A DNA stretch of 64,000 bases. It comes from Azolla caroliniana. Taxonomy: Eukaryota > Plantae > Polypodiophyta. Each line of letters opens with the position of its first letter. The first letter of the stretch is position 1. The DNA is taken from the NCBI GenBank assembly GCA_043228905.1, contig JBHGNT010000003.1:11408001-11472000 (forward strand), in the 5' to 3' direction. Position numbers and translations under genes: made by a program. Below the pieces are notes generated by a model. It saw only the letters and a list, made by a program, of their open reading frames with translations, was not told the origin of the DNA and did no database searches. Shown here one piece after another: positions 33,272-60,500 of the stretch.

Positions 33272-35424
33272 ACTGTATTAATAAAAAATGAACAAAACAC
33301 TGGGTCATTTAGAACAGGTAATATGTCACATTCCTTTATTGATAAATACATGAGATGTCAATAATTACTATTTTTGAACAAACTTTCAAGAATGTATCAC
33401 GCATGCGCACACGATATTTTAAAACATCACTAAAAAATATAGTTAATATTATCAAGATTTCAAATTTAACCTATGTATCCCCACCATAATTGTAATATGC
33501 TTCATTGTACATAATGTTGAATTCGAATCCAACTTAACAAATTTAGAAATACAATTTTGTTGCTATATTTGTCTCTAAATCCTATAAATATTGTTATATT
33601 GAATTAGTAAATAGCATTTTTGGATATAACTAGAAACATATTCACAAATGAATATCGCATGATATACCACATGCCCAAAAACTACTACGAACATTATATC
33701 CTAATCATACATGAACAATGTGAATGTATTATCAAATGAGCAACAATGTGGACTTAATATTATTGTGTTTACATAGATCATACAATAAAGCTAAATTCAA
33801 TTATATTAATCAAGAAACAATTAGAACCAACATTTGTCATACTAGATAGTTCATCATCTTCTTTCAATGAAAATTATACTTAACCGCATACTTTACGAGT
33901 CAACCTTTGCAAACATATAATAGACACTTAAAGTTCGAGACACCAATCGAATAGTGTAAAGAAATGGTACTCAGACAAAAAAAATCTTATATGACAAAAC
34001 AAGTTTAGGGTTGTTGAGAATCAAACTCAACATAGTGCAACGTGTGAACACACCTTTTGAGAATCTATGATTACTCAAAGGTCAAGAGTCACACCACTAC
34101 TCTCTACGGAAAATTCGAGATGATGGACGTGAAGGAGCTCCATTACTTCCTTGGCATCGAAGTAATTCAGATTCCGACCAGCATTATGATCTCTCAACGA
34201 CACTACATCCTCAATTTGTTATACAAGTTCAAGATGACTGAGTGCAAATCGGTCGCTATGCCTCTTGATCGAAACCTCAAACTAGATGCTGACTCCGGCA
34301 CAGACGAGTGCAAGCTAACCCAATATCGTCAATTGATCGGGAGCCTCATCTATCTCACAATCACTCGACCCGACCTTAGCTATCCAGTCGGACTCCTTAG
34401 CCAATTCATGCAAACTCCGTGAGATATCCATTTCGATTGCTCTAAGAGAGTATTACGATATGTGAGCGGCACAATGGATTACGACGTTCTCTACGCATCG
34501 ACCACACCAATACGACTCGAAGGGTACACAAACGCGGACTGGGCAGGCTACAAAGCTGATCGACGATCGACCTCCAGATTTGTCTTCTCGCTCGGTAGCA
34601 GAGCAATATCTTGGAGTAGTAAGAAGCAACCTATTGTCGCACTTTCGAGTACGGAGGCCGAATACAGGGACGCAACCGTAGCTGCAAGTGAAGCCATATG
34701 GCTCAAGAGGATTTTGAAGGATCTGGGTGTTCTCATCAAGGATCTGACTCCCATTTACTGCGACAACATGAGCAGTATATATCTGGCTCCGAACCCGGTG
34801 TTCCACGCACGTACAAAGCATATTGAAGTGCACTATCACTTCATTCGAGAGAATATTAAGGCCGGAGATGTCGATCTTCTACACATCAACACAAATCTTC
34901 AGACAACCGACATCTTCACCAAGGCCCTAGGAGCCGACAAGCTTCGGCAATTCATGTCAGCCCTTGGATTGACGATCCCTGACTTGCCAAGCTTGAGGGG
35001 GAGTACAAGCGAGAACTGGATACCGTCCGAACCGGGTATGAGCCGAAGTGGACATCGGAGATCGTCTGAACCGGATACCAGCCGAAGTAGACATCAATGA
35101 AAAGGAACTGACCTAAGTTGAGCTTGAGGGGATGTGTTGAAAATCAAGCTCAACATAGTGCAATGTGTGAACACATCTTTTGAGAATTTATGATTACTCA
35201 AAGGTCAAGAGCACACCACTACTCTCTACACATTAACTATGTGTCATAGAATCATATTCTATGACACATAACTAATGAGTTACATATTCCCCATGACTAT
35301 GAGTTTTCACATTCCCCAAGAGAGAGAGTGGTCGTTGTAGTTAGTTAATGAAGAGAGAGGGTGACTATATATAAAGCACCCTCCTCATAACTCCTTCCAC
35401 TCGTCGTTTTAAGAGGAGCAATAG

Positions 35425-35843
35425 TGTCATGAATCCATGAACATTATGCTTCACTTGGACTAGAACCTAGGACTTCGTATTACGAAATTCGAAGCCTAAC
35501 CATTAAGGTAACCTATCAGGACGTGAAATGATAAAGGATACTTTTCATAGTGATTATTGTATCAGAGAAACTTCTAGAATTTCCTAGAACATTCTAGAAA
35601 TCTTCTGGTACATCTTAGAATATTCTAGGTCCGGAACATTCTAGAAATCTCTAAGCTATTCTATAGAAACCTATAAATAGAGACAAATAAATCATATCAA
35701 ATAAGTTTGAATCAACACTAGTCTTCAGCTCCAAGCCTAGCTTGTATCCAACTCATCTTTGTACTCATTCTATTCTAATAAACCCACTCTTCTCTTATGA
35801 ATCCATTCTCCTCTCTTCTTCTATTCTCTTATACCTTCCTTCA
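35425..35843 (+). mobile_element. Solo LTR (family T2) with TTCTAGA repeats, inserted in the C2 3' LTR
   Basis: TG...CA ends, 4-bp TSD ATAG/ATAG, TATA box CTATAAATA at ~35671, AATAAA at ~35777. Confidence 0.8.
35451..35514 (-). promoter_or_regulatory. tRNA-like A-box/B-box module in the T2 LTR
   Basis: Minus strand reads TACCTTAATGG...(43-nt start-to-start)...GGTTCTAGTCC, with D-like, anticodon-like (CTTCG/CGAAG) and T-like stems. Confidence 0.6.
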
Positions 35844-36459
35844 ATAGTTTAATCTCTTGCTTTGTTCTAACACGGGCCCTCCGGGACATATAAGAGATGA
35901 TCACGGAATAACAAACCATCTTGTATGGTGAAGTGGTCAAGGTCCGTCCTTTTGGGCATCTTGGAGGGATTTTTATCTAGAATCTCGTTGGCAAATGCAT
36001 TAGTCGTGGATGCATCGGTGATCTGTTGGAGTAACGAATCATCCTGCAACATACAAGTGGCAAAAAGATGCAATTGGTCGGGTTTCAGCAAACAACAAGA
36101 TTGTTGAGCATGAGTGACATCCCCGGGGTGAATGACAAATTCGGCCCGACAAGAAAGAGCATTAGCCTTCCCATGTTGGCCACCAGGTCGAAATACGATC
36201 TCAAAATCATAGTCGGTGAGAAATGTCGACCAACAAGCCTACCTTCGATTCAAAGTAAGAGTAGTGAAAAAATAAAATAAATTCTTATAATGAGTCACTA
36301 TCTGGACATGGTGTTGTGCTTCGGCCAAATAGGGGCGCCATTCTTCAAAGGCCGCAATGATAGCAGCAAGCTCCTTGCCGTATATTGGTTACTTGATTTC
36401 GGATGTTGTGAATTTGCGGGAGTAGTAAGCCACTGGGTGGATTATGTTGGAGTCATCAC

Positions 36460-42369: not shown

Positions 42370-43612
42370 ATCACCAATGGGGAAGTGAGAGGCGTCAGTT
42401 TCTACCTGGAAGGGTTGTGTGGGGTTGACATGTAGAAGCATGGGGGTAGTGGTGAATGCGTGTTTGAGAGAGTCGAACGCATTTTGTGCCGTTGAGGTCC
42501 ATAGAAAGGGAGTACCTTTGCGTGTGAGGGAGATAAGAGGATGGATGGGCTAGAGTGGAAAACCCCTTGATGAAGCGACGGTAAAAATTGGCAAAGCCAA
42601 GGAAGGATTTCACATCTTAAGTCGAGTTGGAGTTGCCCACTCCCGAATGACGGAAACCTTCTTCAGATCCATCGTGATGCAAGTGGGTGAGATGATGTAA
42701 CCCAGGAATTCAATCGAGTTACTTTTCCGCCATGTTTGGAGTCAAAATGAGAACATCATCTAGGTAGATGACCACAAAATGATCGAGATATTCTCGGAAT
42801 ATATCGTTCATCATATGTTGAAAAATAGTTGGGGCATTAGTAAGGCCGAAAGGCATTAAGGACCTTGTATTCGAAATGCCCATATCATGTTCGGAAGGTG
42901 GTTTTCCATTCATCACTGGGCTTGATGCGTACCAGATTGTATGCGCCACGTACATCAACTTTGGAGAAGACACGCTCAGTGCAGAGCCTGTCGAGGAGTT
43001 CAGGAATCATAGGGAGTGGATAGCGGTTGCAAACGGTGAGTTTGTTGAGACCCCGATAGTCTACACATAAGCGTAGAAGGTTGAATAAATCCTTTCGCGA
43101 GGTTCTCATCGAGATACACTCGAAGGGCCTTTAGCTCTGGTGCAGACAATGCATATATAGGAGCAAAGGGTGGACACACGCCTTCTTGAAGATCGATGGG
43201 AGAGTTACAGAGTCTTTCAATTAATCAACTCATCCCTTTGATTATCTTCTACTCTCTTGTGTATATTTTCTACTCGTGACAATTTGTTCACCTTGATTAT
43301 AATCTAGGTGAACACACATATTTATACAAGTTCTGAGACTAAATATCTCTAGAATATACCTGAGAAATATCTCTAGAATATACTCATCTAGAATATACTA
43401 AAGATTAGAATATTTTATATGCTAGGCTATATAATATTAATCATATACAATTTATATATAACTTAAGGGTTTTCAAATGGTTTATCTAATACTACATATT
43501 GGGTGTGTTATAGGTCAGAGGTTCGAGTCACATCTTAGATGTGACAACCCTTTATATATAGGGTTATGGTCGATTACGCTTGGAGTGTGAACCATTACAG
43601 GCGTTCATAACA

Positions 43613-46600
43613 CTTCATTCTATACCTACGACCTCATAATTACTTTACGGTTGTTTCTGTCCCTACACCTTCCTTTTCTTCTGCGTTTTCCCACTTGGTC
43701 GACTTAGGCGGCCAATAAATGGCACACTTGTGGGACAAGGCTTAGCACGTCGGACCCACTTCCACCCTTTATTCATCATCCAAAATATTGGGGATATTGG
43801 GTTCTGGGCAGTTGCACATGTTAGTTGTGATAGGAGTTGCCACGACATTGCTTGGCTTGGTCGTGTTAGACTCTTGTTGTGAACTTGGTTCTGTGGGGGT
43901 AGGCCCGGAAGGAAGTTCAGATTCCATTGATTCTGATACCGCTACCTGCATCCAAGCCTGTGGTGCCCCCTCCGTGGGATCATTGCTCGGCGCTTGTTCC
44001 TCGTGTTGGTCATTGGCTGGAGGTTCTTGTAGTGACTCTTCCCGAGGTTCCTCCCGTGGTTCCTCCCATGCTATGTCGGCCGTGACTTTGGGGGTGTGGT
44101 GGGTATCACTTGGTGTGGGCTCTTGTGGTTGCGGTGCCATGGTAACCTCTGGTTCGGGACTTCATCATAGCCCTGCATAGACTCGTGAATGTTATGCTCC
44201 CCGGAGTCGCTGTCTGGGAGTATGATGGTCGCCGCTCTTTTCACCTCCTCTGCTTTCCGTTGTTCAACTTCGATAGCTTGGAGTTGGATGGAGGTATCAA
44301 TTTGGCTATCACTAAAATCCCCCATTAGCTGCATTATCTCCTCACAGTGGCGATCGACCAAGGCTTGGTAGTCTTGCATAAGGTCATTTCGGACTGTGGC
44401 AATGCTTTCTGATATGTGTAGAGAAGTGGCTCGCTTCCTCTTTTTGTGAAAATGCAAAGTTAGGGTTCAAGATTCGTCGAGCCATTGTGTGGACGTGTGT
44501 ACTTGCTTTCTTGGAAGTTGTGTTTGCATGTAACCTCCTTAAATAGTCATGAATTCCCCTTTTTTTTGTTTTTCATTTCATTTCATACCTAATGGTTATC
44601 GGTGTGATTAGAGTACATTAGTGTTATATACTTACAAGTGAGTTATTATCGTTGTCAGTTACCCACAATCGCCATGGCGGGACATGGCCCGTTTTTCGTA
44701 TCGATTCGAAAAGGGTTCGACGGTGTGGGGCCCCAATACGACTTCAACTGAAAACCGTTGACCTTTTTGCCTAGAGCTTCCCCTGCGAGAGTGCCCATCT
44801 CGAATGTCCCATTTTCGACGCCTATTATCCAATACGGCCCGGTCCATTTGAATAGTAGTTTTCCTAGCATATGTCCCATGCGTGTTTGGAACACTAGGAA
44901 CGCTTTTCCAACTTTAAACCATTTCTCGTTGGTGCCGCGGTGCTGATCTACAAATGCCTTCTATTTACGTTGTTCTTCGTCTAAAATTGCCATGTTGTGG
45001 ACCCTGGTTTCACCGAGCTTGAGGAGTTGATGTAAGCGGACTTGCTCGGATTGTTGTTCGGAAAGACGCTCTCGAACTTGTATCCGTAAACTCGGAACCT
45101 GAATTTCCACAAGCATTACGACTTCTAGTCCGAATGCTAGCCGGAATGGAGTTGATTGGATACTGGTCTTAAAACTAGTACGGTATGCCCATAGGGCACT
45201 ATGCAATTTACTGTCCCAATCCATGCGGTTTTCGTTGACGACTTTCTTTAGGATGTTCTGGAGCGCTTTAGTCATCGATTCCGCGAGTCCATTTGCCTGT
45301 GGATAATAAGGCGTGGTTTTCTTCTGCACTACGGGGTAATGGTCGGTGAGATCGTGGATTACCTCGTTGAGGAAATGGCCTCCTTGGTCGTTGATTAGCA
45401 CCAGATGGCACCAGATGTGCTCGTATAAGAATCGTGCGGTGGATGCCGTTGTGTTATCTCGTAAAGCTTTTGCTTCTACTCACTTCGTACAGTAGTCCGT
45501 GGCCACGAAGATGTACCTATTACCTATCCGTGCCGTTGTTGGAGTAAATGGTTCGACGAAATCAAGACCCCATTTTTGGAATGGTTCTAGTGGTAGCATT
45601 GGTTGATGGGGCATCCACGCTAATTCTGTTGGTTGACCCATTTGCCGACACAGGTCACATTCTTTACAGTACGTGTGGGCATCCTTCTGTGTTGTTGGCC
45701 ATTAAAGTCCTCCTTGCCATATCTTATGTGCGGTTACCTCCCCTGCGTAGGGACCCCCTACTATTCCGCAGTGAGGTTATCGTAATACCGCGCTCTTCTC
45801 ATCTTGGCGTACACACCTTTGCCAAATACGGTCGCTTCTTTTATGGTATAATATTCCTTCGAGCAGAGAAAAAGTCTGGCTTCTGACTGCATGACGCATC
45901 TTTTCATCTGTATGCAGGCGTGGAGGTGGTAGCCCCGTACTTAAAAAATATGTCATTTCCTCCAGCCATTTGTTCGGGAAGTTCATGCCTTCCTCGACAT
46001 CGCTTGCCGAAATACATAGGATTCTGGTATCCGGAAAGTCGTCGTGCCCTTTGACCACTTCTTTTCCATTTTCGATCCGGCTTAGATAATCGGCCACTAC
46101 GTGTTGGGTCCTTGGCCGATGCTAGATCTCGAACTCGAACTCCTATAATTGCAGCATCCACTGGGCCAGCTTCATGGTCAATGATTGTTTTAAGACGAGA
46201 TAGAGTAGCGCCGCGTGATCAACATGAAAGATGAACTTCCGGCCTAATAGATAATGTCGAAATTTGTTGACGTTATATATCATCCCTAATGCTTCTCGCT
46301 CTATCGTGGAGTAATTTCATTCAACGTCAGTTAATTTGTGGCCAGAGTAGTACACTGGACGATACCAATTCAGCTCGGTTAGTTGCATGAGTACGCTACC
46401 GATGGCTATGTCGCATGCATCCACGAACATGTAAAAAGGCTTCGTCCAGAGGTTGTACGTCTGGTGCCTGCATTAGCATTACTTTTAGTGCTAAGTACAC
46501 ATTGTCTTTTGTCGTTGTCCACTTGAAGGGAGTCTGATGCACTGCCGCGTGTAATGGTGTGGTGAAATCTGCCAAATAGCACAACATGCGGCTATGCTAA

Positions 46601-53888: not shown

Positions 53889-55728
53889 TGTTGAGAGACA
53901 AGCTCAACATCGGCCGGATCGGCTAAAGAAGCCAAGGACCGGATCGGTTGGGACCGATCGGTTAGGCCGAATGCGTAAACCGGTACGCAGACCGGTGCGT
54001 AGGTAGGGCCGGATCGGTGCGTAAACCGGGAGGCCGTTAGGAAAGATATTCCGTGAGGAATATATTTGGGAGTTAGTGTAGGAGCTCTTAATGAGCATTG
54101 AAGTACTGTCAGTACTTCGGTCAGTTCTTCTAGGACTTGTATAAAAGTGTTCATTGAACACACATATGCATAGAGTGTGGTGAATAGAGATTGAGTACCT
54201 TTTTTGAATATAGTTCTTGTTTTTTCTCTCTCTCTCACTCTCTCTGTCTCTCCCACGTATACTGCGTAAGCTCAAGCTCTCCATTAAACCTGAGTTTTCT
54301 TCCTTCTGTTCGGTCTTCATACTTGCTTCTGCACGTTACTTTTTACATGGTATCAGAGCGCGAGGGTTGAGAACCTCTCTACAGCTGACACAGCTTGACG
54401 AAGAAGAACAAGAAGAATGATGGATAGAGGCATGGCGAGCTCGCTTCCAACAGAGAAGCTCGACAGAACCAACTACGCGTCTTGGTCCTACAAGATGCAC
54501 CAGTACCTGCTCGGGCACGGGTACTGGAGTTATGTCGAAGGAGCTAATGACGCGGCACCCGAATCGACACACAAAGACTTCCCGTCGTGGGAGCAATCGG
54601 CGAGTAGGGTATTATACTGCTTTGCGTCGTGTGTGGGCGAACAACTATTGAGCTATGTTCGGGATGCAAAGATGTCGTTCGGGGTGCATGGGAAAATCTG
54701 AAGAAGATTTTCGCCGCGAGCACCACAACCAAGAAGCTTCAGCTTCGACTGGAGTTGAGCAACCTACGACAACGCGACTTGTCGGTGGCTGACTATACCT
54801 CGAAGATCAAGGATATCTGTGACTCCCTCGCCTCCATAGAGGTGAACATCGAGGAGAGTGAGATGGTCCAGATCTGTCTCAGAGGTTTGGCGTCGAAGTT
54901 CGGAGCGTTCCGAACGGCTGTGTGTACCCGGGAGAATACGCCGTCCTTTTTCGACTTACAGTCAATGCTCCTGGTAGAGGAGAACCACGCAGGTGCGTCT
55001 ACAAGCACGCACACCGACAACAGAATGTTGTACATGGAGGGAGACAGGCCCCGTGGACGTGGAGGATGAGGCGAGTCGGCGCGCAATGGAGGCGGCCGAC
55101 AAGATCAAGGAAGAAGGCACCGAAGTGATGCCGACAACAACTCCGGACCCTCTGGAAACAGGGGGAGTCTAAGCGATGAGAACCGGCAAGGGAAGGCCAT
55201 CGCGGAGTGCTGGTACTGTGGCAAGAAGGGCCACAGGGAAAGTGAGTGTTGGAAGAAGCGCACCGATTCGGAGAGAACCGGTTCCGGAAACGGCTCCAGA
55301 CATACCGACAAGGGAAATCGGTAGCGATCGCACTACGCCGAAGACTCCGGGAGAGCCGGAGAAGGGTCTGCCTTCGTGATGAGACACGAAGCAAACTCAA
55401 TGAAATGGACCACCCCGAGATCGGACGAGGTGTGGTACGTAGACTCTGGTGCGTCAAACCACATGACGAGCCATAAGGAGTGGTTCTCGTACCTTGAAAA
55501 ACCGATACAATCTGGAGTAGTCGCAACTGGAGACGACACTCCGCATCCGATCACGAATGTCGGAGAAGTCCCCCTTAGCCATGTCGGGCAGAAAGGGAAA
55601 CTCATGAATGTGCTGCACGTTGTCGTAGTGTATTCCACACACTACGTGAAAACCGTAAAATAACATATCCGATTTTAGATACATATAAATAAATAAATAA
55701 TATATCAAAAGAATTTATCACGTGCATA

Positions 55729-55790
55729 GGGCAAGATTCGAACCATGCACCTCCACGTAGATAAACCTCAACTTTACCATTATGCTACCT
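55729..55790 (-). promoter_or_regulatory. tRNA-like Pol III A-box/B-box module in the W 5' LTR (second copy ~58243-58303)
   Basis: A-box TAGCATAATGG (55787-55777) and B-box GGTTCGAATCT (55744-55734); the 3' LTR copy reads GGTTCGAATCC. Confidence 0.7.
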
Positions 55791-56346
55791 TATCTTTAGT
55801 GTTGTACAAATAGATTTAATAACTATAAGTGCTTTATTTGCGCCTACCTTTATTAAAAGGTAAATCATGCATTTTTAGAGTGCGTGAATATTTTATAGAA
55901 AAAACGCAAGCAACTAAAAAGTGACTCATGCACATCTAGCGTGCATGAGCACTATATTTAGCAAATAAAAGCAAGGATTAGAAAAGCATCACATGCACAT
56001 TTAGTGTGCATGAACATATTAGAAAAAGCATGTAGCTATGCTTAGTCTCTCCCATCACTATATAAGGATGGGGAGCACATTGTAGTTTTTGTTGATTATT
56101 TTTCTATAATGATCAATCAATCTAAAATATTCGTGGGATTCACGAATTTGCTAAAATAATTCTCTCTTACTACCTAAATATTGACTAAATATACTAAACT
56201 CGTGGGATTCACGAGATTCTTATCTTATAACTCTTTATACCTATTCTTTACTAGCCTTATTTGTATTTTTCTTTCTCCTAGTCCAAAACCTCGGCGGTTC
56301 CCACCCGACTCACGCAACGATCCGAAGCCGAAAGGCACGACACAGT

Positions 56347-56364
56347 TGGTGAACCCGACGTGAA
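56347..56364 (+). promoter_or_regulatory. Primer-binding site complementary to tRNA-Trp
   Basis: TGGTGAACCCGACGTGAA is the reverse complement of the plant cytosolic tRNA-Trp 3' end (...TTCACGTCGGGTTCA-CCA), recalled from knowledge. Confidence 0.85.
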
Positions 56365-56380
56365 GGCGGGTGGTAAGGAG

Positions 56381-57589
56381 ATGGAGAATCAACAAGAAGC
56401 GATGAATATGATGATGATGATGATTAAGCGGATGCAAGAAGAGCAACACACAATGTCAGAGATGAAATCGGCAGTAGTGCGGCTTGTGCAAAGAAACGGG
56501 GAATTCGACGGAAAGGATGTGTCACGCTATCTACATGACTACAAGACGGAGATGATGCGATGTGGGATACCGGAAGGATTGCAAGTGATATCCTTCAGTC
56601 GGGTAGCCACGGATGAGTTACAAGAAAGAATCTTCAAGATACGGCAACAAAATCCAACATGGGAGTCCTTTGAAGAAGCTATACGAGACGCATACGACTA
56701 TCTAAGACCGAAGCAGATGAGGACATGGTCCACGAACGGCGGTCAACAGTGGGTGAAAAGTGGCCACCGACTTCCACTGAAGGAGAGCTTGATGCGGAAG
56801 GGTTCGGAGATGCATGAAAAGTCGCAAGTCGACATTGAAGGGGAGCTTAAAACCGAACCAAAGTGGAGGCCAACAAAGGACGAGGAGGAGGAAGATTGAG
56901 GACGAAAGGGTATCCCCACACCGGTTCCAGAAACTTTGGCGGTTGTGCCCGTGCACCAACGTGAGACCGGAGAGACGGAATGTGTCGGCGGAAAGGTGGA
57001 GGACCGGAAGGGCGACGAGGAAGACAAAGTAAATGAGCACGAACGAAGGGATTCCTTCACCATTGTTTTGGAAACTTCGGTAGTCGAGCCCGTGTGTCGA
57101 CATAACACCGAAGATAAGGAAAGTGGCGGCAACGAAACGAAGGTCGAAGCCGATGCATACGAAGGAGAGATAGCCAAGGAGGTGGCTATGGGTGAAACAA
57201 CGGAGGACGATAATACTGTGGATTCCTATCCACTAATTCTAGAGACTTCGGCGGTTGTATTCGAGAACCAACGTGAGACCGGAGAGACAGGAGGTGGCGG
57301 CAAGAAAGGTAAAGTCGGAAGCCGGTTCGGATGGAAGGTGATCCGGACGGGATTCCGATCCGAAAGAAAGCCGAACCGGGTGAAAGAGGATTCGACCGAA
57401 AGACGACCCGAAAGAAAGCCGAACCGGACGAATGAGGATTCAACCGAATGTCGACCCAAAAGAAAGCCGAACCGAAAGGAAGAGAATTCGGCCGAAAGCC
57501 GAACCGGGCGAATGAGGATTCGGCCAAAAGACGACCCAAAAGAAAGCCGACCCGAAAAGGGGTCGACTCGATCAAAACCGGTCGACTGA
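56381..57589 (+). pseudogene. W ORF: Gag-capsid-like N-terminus plus charged repetitive tail, one in-frame TGA at 56897
   Basis: ORFs 56360-56899 and 56936-57589 are in the same frame. FDGKDVSRYL...WESFEEAI resembles Ty3 gag. 16-aa repeats of the ERKPNRxxEDSTExRP type follow. Confidence 0.65.
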
Positions 57590-60500
57590 GTCTGACTTGG
57601 CCGAACGCGAATATGGATGGAAGCCGACCTAGCCGAAAGCCGATCGGATGAGACCGATCCGGAAAGAAGCTAATCCGACTCAACCGGAGGTTGGACCGGT
57701 CGAGGCTGGTGAAAACGAGGAAAAGAAAGCCAACCGAAACCGAAAGCGATAGATCGAAACCGGGCCGGAAGGAGACCGACTCAATCAAACCCGAACAACC
57801 GATTCCGATTCGGCCGAATACGAATCCGATCGGAAGCCGATCAAACCAAAAGTTGATCGGACGAGAGCGATCCGGAAAAAAGTCAAGGTTGATGAAGACA
57901 AGAAAGAGGCCAGTAAACGACACTACCACGAATGACAAGGGCCAAGAATATGACGAGAGAGAACAAAGAATATGGTGGATCGGATGGCGACAATGGTTCG
58001 GGTGGAAAGAATGGGTCTACTCAAAATGGAGAGACAAAGTTGACATAGCGGGACAAACGGAGGATGAAGGGAAGACAACGAGCATCGGCAACTTCGGCAC
58101 ATACCGGAGGATGTGCGGGTTCGGAGGGGGCGAGTGTCGTAGTGTATTCCACACACTACGTGAAAACCGTAAAATAACATATCCGATTTTAGATACATAT
58201 AAATAAATAAATAATATATCAAAAGAATTTATCACGTGCATAGGGCAGGATTCGAACCATGCACCTCCACGTAGATAAACCTCAACTTTACCATTATAAT
58301 AACTTATCTTTAATGTTATAAATATAGATTTAATACGTATAAGACCTTTATTTACACATACCTTTATTAAAAGGTAAAAATCATGTATTCTTTAGAGTGT
58401 GAATATTTTATTTACACGTGCCACTAAAAGTGACTCATGCACATCTAGCGTGCATGAGCCCTATATTTAGAAAATGACAAAGCATCACATGCACATTTAG
58501 TGTGCATGGACACTTTAGGTGAAAAAGCATGAAGTCATGCTTAGCCTCTTCCATCTTTATATGAGGAGAGAAATATGTATAAGGTTGTTGATTAATATAG
58601 AAGAATTGATCAATCTAATATATTCGTGGGATTCACGAATTTTGCCATCTAAATTACTCTTATAATCTAAATATTGTTTTAAAATACACTAAACTCGTGG
58701 GATTCACGAGATTACTATCTTACTTCTCTTCCTATTATTCATAACTAGCCTTAAGTTGTATTTTTCTTTCTCCTAGTCCAAAACCTCGGCGGTTCCCACC
58801 CGACTCACGCAACGATCCGGAGCCGAAGGGCTCGACAACGTTCCGACAATCACGAAGAACTTGGTCTCGGTCGGACAGATCGTTGACCAAGGGATGGAGG
58901 TTCGGTTTACACACCTCGGGTGCTTCATTGAGGAAGTAGGCCGTGTGATTGCGCAAGGGCGCAGAGACGGGAGGATGTTCATCCTCGATTCCACTGACGG
59001 CGGCACCACAATGTTCGCGAAGGGACAAAAATCCGAGTCGGACATCGACTTGTGGCACAAGCGGATAGGCCACGTCAACTACCAGCAGTGGCTTCAAGAT
59101 CTGCAATCGAAACAGGTAGTGTTCGGATTGCCCAAATTTAGTGGCCGAAAGGCAAAAATTTGTGAAGCTTGCCAGCTCGGGAAGCAACACCGACTTCCTT
59201 TCCCAAACGAGCGAAACCGGAGCCAGAACAAGCTCGACCTTATACACTCCGATGTATGGGGGCCGACACAAAACGTTAATCTTGCGGGAGCCGATATTTC
59301 GTCTCCTTCATTGACGACCACACGTGGCACACGTGATCTACCTCATTGAGAGGAAGAGCGAAGTCTTCGACTGTTTCCGGAACCTCAAAGGGTTCGTGGA
59401 AACGGCAACGGGATGAAGGATCAAGTGCCTGCGGTCAGATGGCGGGAAAGAGTACTTTTCTGGTCAATTCAACGGATATCTACAACAAATGGGAATTCAG
59501 CGTGAATTCAGTTGTAGATACACACCGGAGCAGAACGGCGTGGCCGAGAGGAAGAATCGGTCAGTTGTGGAAGCGGCACGGGCAATGTTGGAGGAGAAGA
59601 GCTTGCCCAAGTTCTACTGGGCGGAGGCGGTAAGGACCGCGGTATACATCCAGAACCGGATCGGAGACAAAGTGTCGGCGCATGAGCTATATTTCGGAAT
59701 GAAGCCGAACTTGAGACACTTGAGGGTGTTCGGTAGCATTGCGTATATGCATGTACCGAAGGAGAAAAGGAGGAAGTTGGACGCAAAGGCCAAGAAATGC
59801 ATCTTGGTCGGTTTCTCGGACGAGCAGAAGGGTTATAAGTGCTATAACCCTCGCACCAAACAAGCGCGTGTCAGCCGCGACGTTGTGTTTGACGAGTCCG
59901 CATCTTGGTACCAACCCCCGACTCCGAACCCCGACTCCAATCCAAGCTCTGACGATGAGGTCAGAGAGGCCGAGATGCCTCCGGATGAGCCTGAAATTGA
60001 GACCCGCGAAAAGAGTCCGATTTCACTCCGTTTAAGTGGACCGATTGGACGACTGAGTCGGTACGATCAGTCGGATGAAGAGTCGGCGAGTAGTGGAGAC
60101 TCGGCCATGCATTCCCCGCGCAGGAAGCCGAGGAGACGGCTTACGCGCAAAGAGAAAGGGAAGAAGAAGGTGTCGGATTCCGGCATGGATAGGAACGGGT
60201 CGGACTGATGCGAGTCCGACTTCAAGGGAAGCGGCGACGGGCCTTCAGGAATGAAGTCCGCGTCGGCCGAGAAGACCTCGACATTGGCTAATGTGAGATT
60301 ACGCCGATCTACCCGCCAGAAGAACCCTATTTTGCGGTTCGGATACAACGAGTACATGGCGCATCATTATGCGTACATGACCCATGTAGCGGAAGTGTGT
60401 GAGCCGGAGAGCTATGTAGAAGCGGCTAAAGACACGAACTGGCATGCCGCGATGGAGGAAGAGATGCACGCATTGGCGGAGAACGAGACCTGGGACCTGG

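What the first reader, a model, noticed from the sequence alone, without database searches (positions are those of the whole stretch)
55729..58303. tRNA-like Pol III modules built into the LTRs of three Gypsy-type families
Seen: the W LTRs carry, on the antisense strand near the LTR 5' end, A-box TAGCATAATGG and B-box GGTTCGAATC(T/C) starting 43 nt apart, with a GAGGT variable-loop-like stretch. The A-box is decayed in the 3' LTR. The T2 solo LTR has the same layout at 35457-35510 (TACCTTAATGG/GGTTCTAGTCC, also 43 nt). The T LTR has a more decayed version at 43470-43530 (...CAAATGG...AGGTCAGAGGTTCGAGTC), again antisense and near the 5' end. Known: this spacing matches the internal type-2 Pol III promoter of tRNA genes, Cassandra TRIMs carry 5S-derived Pol III promoters in their LTRs, and TFIIIC-bound B-boxes can act as chromatin barriers. 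Inference: this may be a tRNA analogue of the Cassandra design, giving outward antisense Pol III transcription or insulating the LTR promoter from surrounding heterochromatin.
Basis: partly seen in the sequence, partly recalled or inferred. Interest (0 to 1): 0.85.

Follow-up and report, generated by a model that had tools for sequence, protein, structure and literature searches.

The report
Backward tRNA promoter inside moss LTRs
Several jumping-gene families, likely from a moss, carry a backward-facing remnant of a tRNA gene near the start of their end-repeats, which likely acts as a Pol III factor binding site beside the element's own promoter and is a variant of the known Helenus/Cassandra design.

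Summary
The W and T2 modules are real: antisense A- and B-boxes 43 nt apart, the top three tRNA-landmark scores in the window (30.9, 30.3, 25.3; best of 20 shuffled windows 19.5). T is weak (13.1).

W is a gag-only Phygy-type Gypsy. The module is inherited across its family, including an intact autonomous element (L017). A distant intact relative (pol 71% identical, LTR unalignable) has an antisense module at the same LTR position, with the same spacing. T2's family has a canonical B-box. T and T2 are not shown to be Gypsy.

Against function: no excess conservation within the W family, both box cores intact in 3 of 16 copies, no cloverleaf, and other Phygy LTRs lack it. A TTTT run 10-19 nt downstream would end any Pol III RNA inside the W LTR, so outward transcription is unlikely there.

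tRNA-in-LTR elements are already described (Helenus, Kojima 2024), but in sense orientation in short TRIMs. This antisense U3 form in coding elements is a new variant. Best reading: a selected TFIIIC/Pol III cassette (0.45) over a neutral relic (0.35). No RNA or ChIP evidence. The scan noted a loosely similar internal capture in a fungal Gypsy, not this one.

The parts
55621..58837 (+). W element: non-autonomous, gag-derived Phygy-type Gypsy retrotransposon inserted in a Copia element; 4-bp TSD ACGT at 55617-55620 and 58838-58841
   Evidence: Phygy = 4-bp NCGN TSD and tRNA-Trp PBS; ends shared with intact element L017
55621..56342 (+). W 5' LTR (722 bp)
55723..55794 (-). tRNA-derived module in U3 of the W 5' LTR
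   Evidence: RF00005 full-model match, 16.5 bits; landmark score 30.9
55777..55787 (-). A-box, W 5' LTR, 0 mismatches to the consensus used
55734..55744 (-). B-box, W 5' LTR, 1 mismatch
55707..55710 (-). T4 run 12 nt after the module; predicted Pol III terminator
   Evidence: function inferred
56059..56066 (+). TATA-like box of the W 5' LTR (predicted Pol II promoter), about 265 bp inward of the module
   Evidence: function inferred
56347..56363 (+). Primer-binding site; assignment to tRNA-Trp is recalled, and fits Phygy
56381..56899 (+). gag-derived ORF start; no pol in W
58123..58134 (+). Polypurine tract of W
   Evidence: same tract before the L017 LTR
58135..58837 (+). W 3' LTR (703 bp), 83% identical to the 5' LTR, mosaic
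58237..58308 (-). tRNA-derived module in the W 3' LTR (A-box 58301-58291, B-box 58258-58248)
35425..35872 (+). T2 LTR: no TSD, superfamily unknown; interrupts a Copia 3' LTR that starts at 35135
35457..35510 (-). T2 module: A-box 35510-35500, B-box 35467-35457; other copies carry a purine at the B-box position where this copy has T
43290..43546 (-). 5' part of the T LTR (3' boundary uncertain), superfamily unknown
   Evidence: boundaries are my reading
43470..43530 (+). Weak T module: B-box 43520-43530 with AGGTC before it, poor A-box

Best explanation
The W and T2 LTRs carry an antisense tRNA-derived cassette near their 5' end that is inherited with the LTR and likely works as a DNA element, a predicted TFIIIC (Pol III) binding site that would help keep the neighbouring Pol II promoter open or shielded in active copies. 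Shown: the boxes, their tRNA geometry, inheritance across the W family including an intact gag-pol element, and the absence of a tRNA fold. Inferred: a tRNA gene or SINE head entered U3 of an ancestral LTR and was spread to both LTRs by reverse transcription. Inferred: in W any Pol III RNA would be about 85-90 nt and stop at the T4 run inside the LTR. Inferred: most genomic copies lose the B-box by CpG deamination after insertion, so selection would act only on replicating copies. Factor binding, transcription and benefit to the element are untested.
For: L024/L025, an element with open gag and pol frames (pol 71% identical to L017; LTR alignment score at shuffle level), has an antisense module 166 nt from its LTR start (167 in W5), 43-nt spacing, T4 behind it, score 24.3, 0 of 300 shuffles. 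Against L017 it matches 10 of 14 in A-box/D-loop, 5 of 5 in the variable loop and 8 of 11 in the B-box, but 5 of 21 in the anticodon arm and 27 of 71 in the flanks. T2 family: the B-box position that is T here is a purine in 569 of 569, 1739 of 1739 and 848 of 855 depth units in three runs, and no variant of 20% or more is listed in the A-box. A second LTR type carries it too: L030 has A 0 / B 1 mismatches at 43 nt, antisense, B-box about 10 nt from the LTR start. T2-L014 and L014-L030 are similar outside the module (0 and 1 of 200 shuffles). All 8 chromovirus and Copia control LTR pieces score at shuffle level. Among diverged W copies the module is 74% identical versus 62% for the adjacent flank. 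In yeast TFIIIB/TFIIIC sites block Pol II read-through (PMC5052057, passages).
Against: Within the W family the module ranks only at the 75th-92nd percentile of 72-nt blocks; the B-box CpG survives in 5 of 17 copies, no better than other LTR CpGs; both box cores are intact in 3 of 16. In close copies the module is less identical than its flank (83% vs 88%). L017's A-box lacks G10 and L025's lacks G10 and A14. Eight other Phygy LTR pieces, including intact L006 (its twin L007 has pol 64% identical to L017), show no module; L023 has lost the B-box while keeping the ACGTGGAGGT stretch. The L017/L025 pattern is also what two separate captures of different tRNAs would give. A tightly bound Pol III complex in the 3' LTR would stand in the way of the element's own transcript (inference from PMC5052057). 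The landmark profile is my own, from recalled tRNA consensus, fixed after seeing W.
Confidence: 0.45

Rival explanations
1. The modules are neutral relics: tRNA pseudogenes or SINE heads that fell into U3 a few times and have since ridden along without function.
For: No excess conservation within W. No cloverleaf: 48% of cells paired versus 47.5% shuffled, no covariation. Module absent from 8 other Phygy LTR pieces and eroded in L023, L031 and L054. An AT-rich, tail-like stretch follows it in W. Kojima notes that 'not a few' Repbase LTRs hold tRNA-like parts.
Against: Boxes and exact spacing persist in L024/L025 although the rest of the LTR is unalignable. Same strand and same end of the LTR in W-type and T2-type LTRs. 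No consistent TSD around the module in 7 copies examined, and no clean empty-site allele among the W LTRs.
Confidence: 0.35
2. The stretch is tRNA-derived but is kept for overlapping Pol II enhancer motifs (ACGT-core G-box/ABRE-like sites; label recalled), not for Pol III.
For: Two of the three ACGT cores in the W 5' LTR lie in or at the edge of the module. ACGTGGAGGT is what survives in L023, L054 and one L031 copy where the boxes have eroded. A P. patens Gypsy family is ABA-induced (PMC7466625, passages; its link to Phygy not shown).
Against: L024/L025, T2 and L030 keep the boxes without that motif. The ACGT CpG decays like others (7 of 18 kept).
Confidence: 0.1
3. The short antisense Pol III RNA itself is the product and pairs with U3 of the element's genomic RNA, tuning silencing or replication.
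For: A self-contained unit with a T4 end in 16 of 17 W-type copies would be exactly complementary to 3' U3. L009 and L030 modules fold better than shuffles (z -3.0 and -4.4).
Against: 6 of 8 modules fold no better than shuffles; no covariation; such an RNA could as well trigger silencing of the element.
Confidence: 0.07
4. The module drives the element's own genomic RNA by Pol III, as in Cassandra and as proposed for Helenus.
For: Box motifs match those described for Helenus.
Against: Antisense orientation; LTRs of 450-800 bp with their own TATA box; present in 6.5-kb gag-pol elements.
Confidence: 0.03

Closest known systems
Helenus TRIMs (TRIMp3; Kojima 2024, PMC10886601; parts 1-4 of 6 of the text and supplement passages read)
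   Same: tRNA-derived sequence inside both LTRs, conservation centred on boxes A and B, no functional tRNA fold, origin by SINE insertion proposed, function untested.
   Different: Helenus are 311-1263 bp non-coding TRIMs; in the consensus LTRs I saw the tRNA part is sense. The only plant case is Selaginella. Here it is antisense in U3 of long TATA-bearing LTRs, also in gag-pol elements.
Cassandra TRIMs (5S-derived Pol III promoter; as described in PMC10886601 and one passage of PMC10853983)
   Same: A Pol III internal promoter carried in an LTR of a plant retrotransposon.
   Different: 5S type, replaces the Pol II promoter and makes the element RNA; here tRNA type, opposite strand, next to a retained TATA box.
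Phygy non-chromovirus Ty3/gypsy clade (Neumann et al. 2019, PMC6317226; passages and one supplement row read)
   Same: W has a 4-bp NCGN TSD and the PBS type given for Phygy; relatives have gag plus RT-RH-INT with no chromodomain hit.
   Different: No tRNA-like LTR module in the passages read; W itself is a 3.2-kb deletion derivative; only part of the related families carry the module.
tRNA-derived SINEs (SINE2) and tRNA genes as chromatin barriers or Pol II roadblocks (roadblock: PMC5052057, passages; barrier role recalled)
   Same: A/B boxes in tRNA geometry followed by an AT-rich stretch and a T run.
   Different: No TSD, no free copies seen in 178 kb of loci or the window, moves only as part of the LTR; barrier data come from yeast and mammals, not plants.

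Membership tests
Helenus / TRIMp3 | tRNA-derived sequence with boxes A and B inside the LTR | tested here: met
   (W, T2; weak for T)
Helenus / TRIMp3 | Short non-coding TRIM (311-1263 bp) | tested here: not met
   W is 3217 bp with a gag-derived ORF; L017 is a gag-pol element
Helenus / TRIMp3 | tRNA part in sense orientation, able to drive the element RNA (seen in supplement consensus LTRs; not stated in the text) | tested here: not met
   antisense in W, T2, L017, L025, L030
Helenus / TRIMp3 | Pol III transcription of the element | not testable with these tools
   needs 5' RACE or ChIP
Cassandra | 5S rRNA-derived sequence in the LTR | tested here: not met
   no 5S match listed in Rfam scans of the LTRs
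Phygy (W family) | 4-bp TSD of type NCGN | tested here: met
   ACGT on both sides of W; criterion
Phygy (W family) | tRNA-Trp PBS | tested here: inconclusive
   PBS present and shared by 34 of 61 loci; its match to tRNA-Trp is recalled, not run
Phygy (W family) | Gypsy domain order RT-RH-INT without chromodomain in autonomous members | tested here: met
   L017, L007, L024
Phygy (W family) | RT groups with REXdb Phygy references | not testable with these tools
   no reference set held
Ty3/gypsy (T and T2 LTRs) | LTR attached to its own Gypsy gag-pol, PBS or PPT | tested here: inconclusive
   neither LTR has its own internal domain in the window; contig ends show only mixed flanks
Functional tRNA gene | Cloverleaf with paired stems, passing tRNA finders | tested here: not met
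Ordinary SINE insertion | Own TSD, present in few LTR copies, free copies elsewhere | tested here: not met
   no consistent TSD; in most W LTRs that cover the site; no free copy above noise

The most novel reading that the evidence does not exclude
Moss LTR retrotransposons of at least two unrelated LTR types have recruited an outward-facing tRNA promoter into the 5' edge of U3 and keep it under selection as a portable TFIIIC barrier that protects their Pol II promoter when they land inside methylated nests of other elements. This would be the first built-in Pol III insulator in autonomous plant retrotransposons.
Probability: 0.3. Interest if true: 0.8.

Novelty: new variant of a known kind. 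Interest (0 to 1): 0.52.

Why it matters
Known Pol III cassettes in LTRs (Cassandra, Helenus, Ajax) are promoters for tiny non-coding elements. An antisense cassette kept in U3 of full coding elements would be a different use: a transposon carrying its own chromatin boundary or read-through block. It gives a direct test of whether TFIIIC barriers work in plants, because related intact elements with and without the cassette exist (L017 and L024 versus L006). If it is neutral, it still explains a source of tRNA-like false hits in moss genomes.

Tried and rejected
ARAGORN at lowered thresholds is noise: about 237 window hits at -ps70. Rfam on the whole window and on 11 loci listed no tRNA match. 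Viral-contig scans for W and T2 patterns and for the W gag and T-host integrase gave nothing useful; nor did the genome-contig scan. The gag tree was a quick tree with 29 of 50 inner branches open, used some frameshifted rows, and labelled L024/L025 as lacking the module before one search showed otherwise; I draw nothing from it. A shifted T-arm (8-nt loop) pairs in 75% of cells but shows no covariation. The idea that the module is a copy of the primer tRNA is rejected: its 3' part does not match the PBS (read by eye). The first T4-distance scan mis-anchored and was redone. The TSD loop stopped after 7 of 11 copies. T is not significantly similar to T2, L014 or L030 (5-131 of 200 shuffles). 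No RNA holder was listed, which is no evidence on expression. Summed contig depth over the W module resembles its neighbours but is not a copy number. Literature searches found no description of antisense tRNA modules in U3 of autonomous plant LTRs; the library lacks most subscription journals and Repbase entries.
Full report
Setting. The window is a nest of LTR retrotransposons. The host is likely a moss; this is inferred from the Phygy-type element, a clade described from Physcomitrella patens (PMC6317226, passages). The W element is held by runs of at least three coded organisms.

W element. W spans 55621-58837 with LTRs at 55621-56342 and 58135-58837, a 4-bp ACGT duplication, a PBS at 56347-56363 and a PPT at 58123-58134. 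The 4-bp NCGN TSD and tRNA-Trp PBS define Phygy in Neumann et al.'s supplement; that this PBS matches tRNA-Trp is recalled. W encodes only gag-derived sequence. Both ends of its interior match L017, a 6.5-kb contig with open gag and RT-RH-INT frames.

The observation. With an IUPAC A/B scan the window has 3 hits at two mismatches or fewer (W5, W3, T2) against 0.25 in 60 shuffles. A fixed-geometry profile of tRNA landmark positions ranks W5, W3 and T2 first (30.9, 30.3, 25.3); true tRNA genes in the loci score 33.8 and 26.9, and the best of 20 shuffled windows is 19.5. The profile is my own, from recalled consensus, and was set after seeing W. T scores 13.1 and is not exceptional at window level, though 0 of 300 shuffles of its own LTR reach it. 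Rfam sees a weak full-model tRNA match only in W5 (16.5 bits; none). ARAGORN finds none.

T and T2 are not shown to be Gypsy. The LTR starting at 35135 follows a Copia RT/RNase H and PPT. T2 proper begins at 35425 and ends at 35872, where contigs of other copies diverge. It has no TSD and abuts a Gypsy RNase H fragment on the other strand. The T LTR starts at 43546 on the minus strand, just behind a TATA box of another LTR that I read as starting near 43667 after a purine tract. T2, L014 and L030 form a chain of related LTRs; T is not significantly linked to them.

Family distribution. Sixty metagenome loci with W-related gag were fetched. Of 31 profile hits to the W LTR 5' part, 21 cover the module site (this filter favours carriers). 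Sixteen distinct full-length modules were aligned. Left out were L016 (duplicate of L017), L054 (diverged) and L011, L019, L035 (cut by deletions or an insertion). Two LTRs lack the site through deletions of about 310-350 bp (L011 5' LTR, L026); no clean empty site was seen. No consistent TSD flanks the module in the 7 copies examined. In 178 kb of loci all but one of 28 landmark hits at 16 or more are W-type modules, L024/L025, L030 or true tRNA genes. So the module travels as part of the LTR and is not a scattered SINE insertion.

Conservation, for and against. Within the W family there is no significant excess: 78% versus 75% identity to the flank overall, 83% versus 88% in close copies, 74% versus 62% in diverged ones. 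The module ranks at the 75th-92nd percentile of 72-nt blocks, the B-box CpG is kept in 5 of 17 copies, and both box cores are intact in 3 of 16. There is no cloverleaf and no covariation. Across deeper relatives the picture differs. L024/L025 has open gag and pol frames, pol 71% identical to L017, and an LTR that does not align with W or L017. It still has an antisense module 166 nt from the LTR start, 43-nt spacing and a T4 run. Matches to L017 concentrate in the boxes and variable loop, with 5 of 21 in the anticodon arm. Descent with selection and separate capture of another tRNA both fit this. Eight other Phygy LTR pieces, among them intact L006, and all 8 chromovirus and Copia control pieces lack it; L060 has a weak sense-strand candidate (8 of 300 shuffles); L023, L031 and L054 show erosion. 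In T2's family the one B-box mismatch of the window copy is private: nearly all depth in four runs has a purine there.

Mechanism. The strand rules out use as the element's promoter. In W-type copies a T4 run follows 10-19 nt after the module in 16 of 17, so a Pol III RNA would end inside the LTR. The cassette lies about 265 bp outside the TATA box and faces away from it. The best reading is a DNA element bound by TFIIIC that keeps U3 open or blocks incoming transcription in active copies (0.45). In yeast such sites stop Pol II (PMC5052057, passages). The same fact is a cost, since the 3' LTR copy lies in the path of the element's own transcript; weak A-boxes in L017 and L025 might ease this (inference). 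A neutral relic (0.35) is not excluded. Retention for ACGT-core enhancer motifs (0.10), an antisense RNA role (0.07) and a Cassandra-like role (0.03) follow. No expression or binding data could be examined.

Comparison with what is known. That paper set aside elements over 1000 bp while noting that other LTRs hold tRNA-like parts. The Helenus LTRs I saw carry the tRNA part in sense. The modules here fail the size and orientation features, so they are not Helenus. Searches found no report of the antisense U3 form in autonomous plant elements; Repbase entries and subscription papers were not searchable. PMC7466625, PMC13570524, PMC10853983, PMC5633606, PMC8664484 and bioRxiv 10.1101/827881 were seen as passages only.

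Verdict. Real for W and T2, doubtful for T. A new variant of a known kind, function unproven. Interest 0.52.

Noticed in passing
L050:35-2040: Two Phygy LTRs (93% alike) sit at the same ACGG site of neighbouring units of a tandem initiator-tRNA array. L011 has a tRNA-Leu 470 bp before its LTR and L034 two tRNA-Phe copies. ARAGORN found tRNA genes in 3 of 60 loci; a target preference near tRNA genes is possible but untested.
   Followed up: partly
window 55621-56342 vs 58135-58837: The two W LTRs are identical in nt 1-102 and nearly so in 641-722 but about 17% different in between, mostly by transversions: a recombinant of two subfamilies, so LTR identity does not date this copy.
   Followed up: partly
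window 56381-58134; P0003, P0005, P0007: Related proteins of 531-605 aa run from gag into the 3' LTR, pointing to a gag-only (TR-GAG-like, label recalled) Phygy family with a long open frame.
   Followed up: no
window 35560-35670, 43345-43395; L014:1320-1370: T-type LTRs carry arrays of TTCTAGAA-like repeats before the TATA box, resembling heat-shock elements (label recalled). The part at 35620-35680 is shared with a far more abundant family.
   Followed up: no
window 35423-35474: Contigs in three runs show a tandem duplication of the first ~50 bp of the T2 LTR, which includes the B-box.
   Followed up: no
L025:6117; L060:308-361: Sense-strand B-boxes lie in the 3' part of two other Phygy LTRs; L060 has an A-like box 43 nt before it.
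   Followed up: partly
L019:36-114: A second W-type LTR has inserted at the ACGT site inside the module, in line with the NCGN target preference.
   Followed up: no
window 34012-34107: A 96-bp 5' LTR stub is joined directly to Copia RT sequence: an internal deletion of the Copia element that hosts T2.
   Followed up: partly
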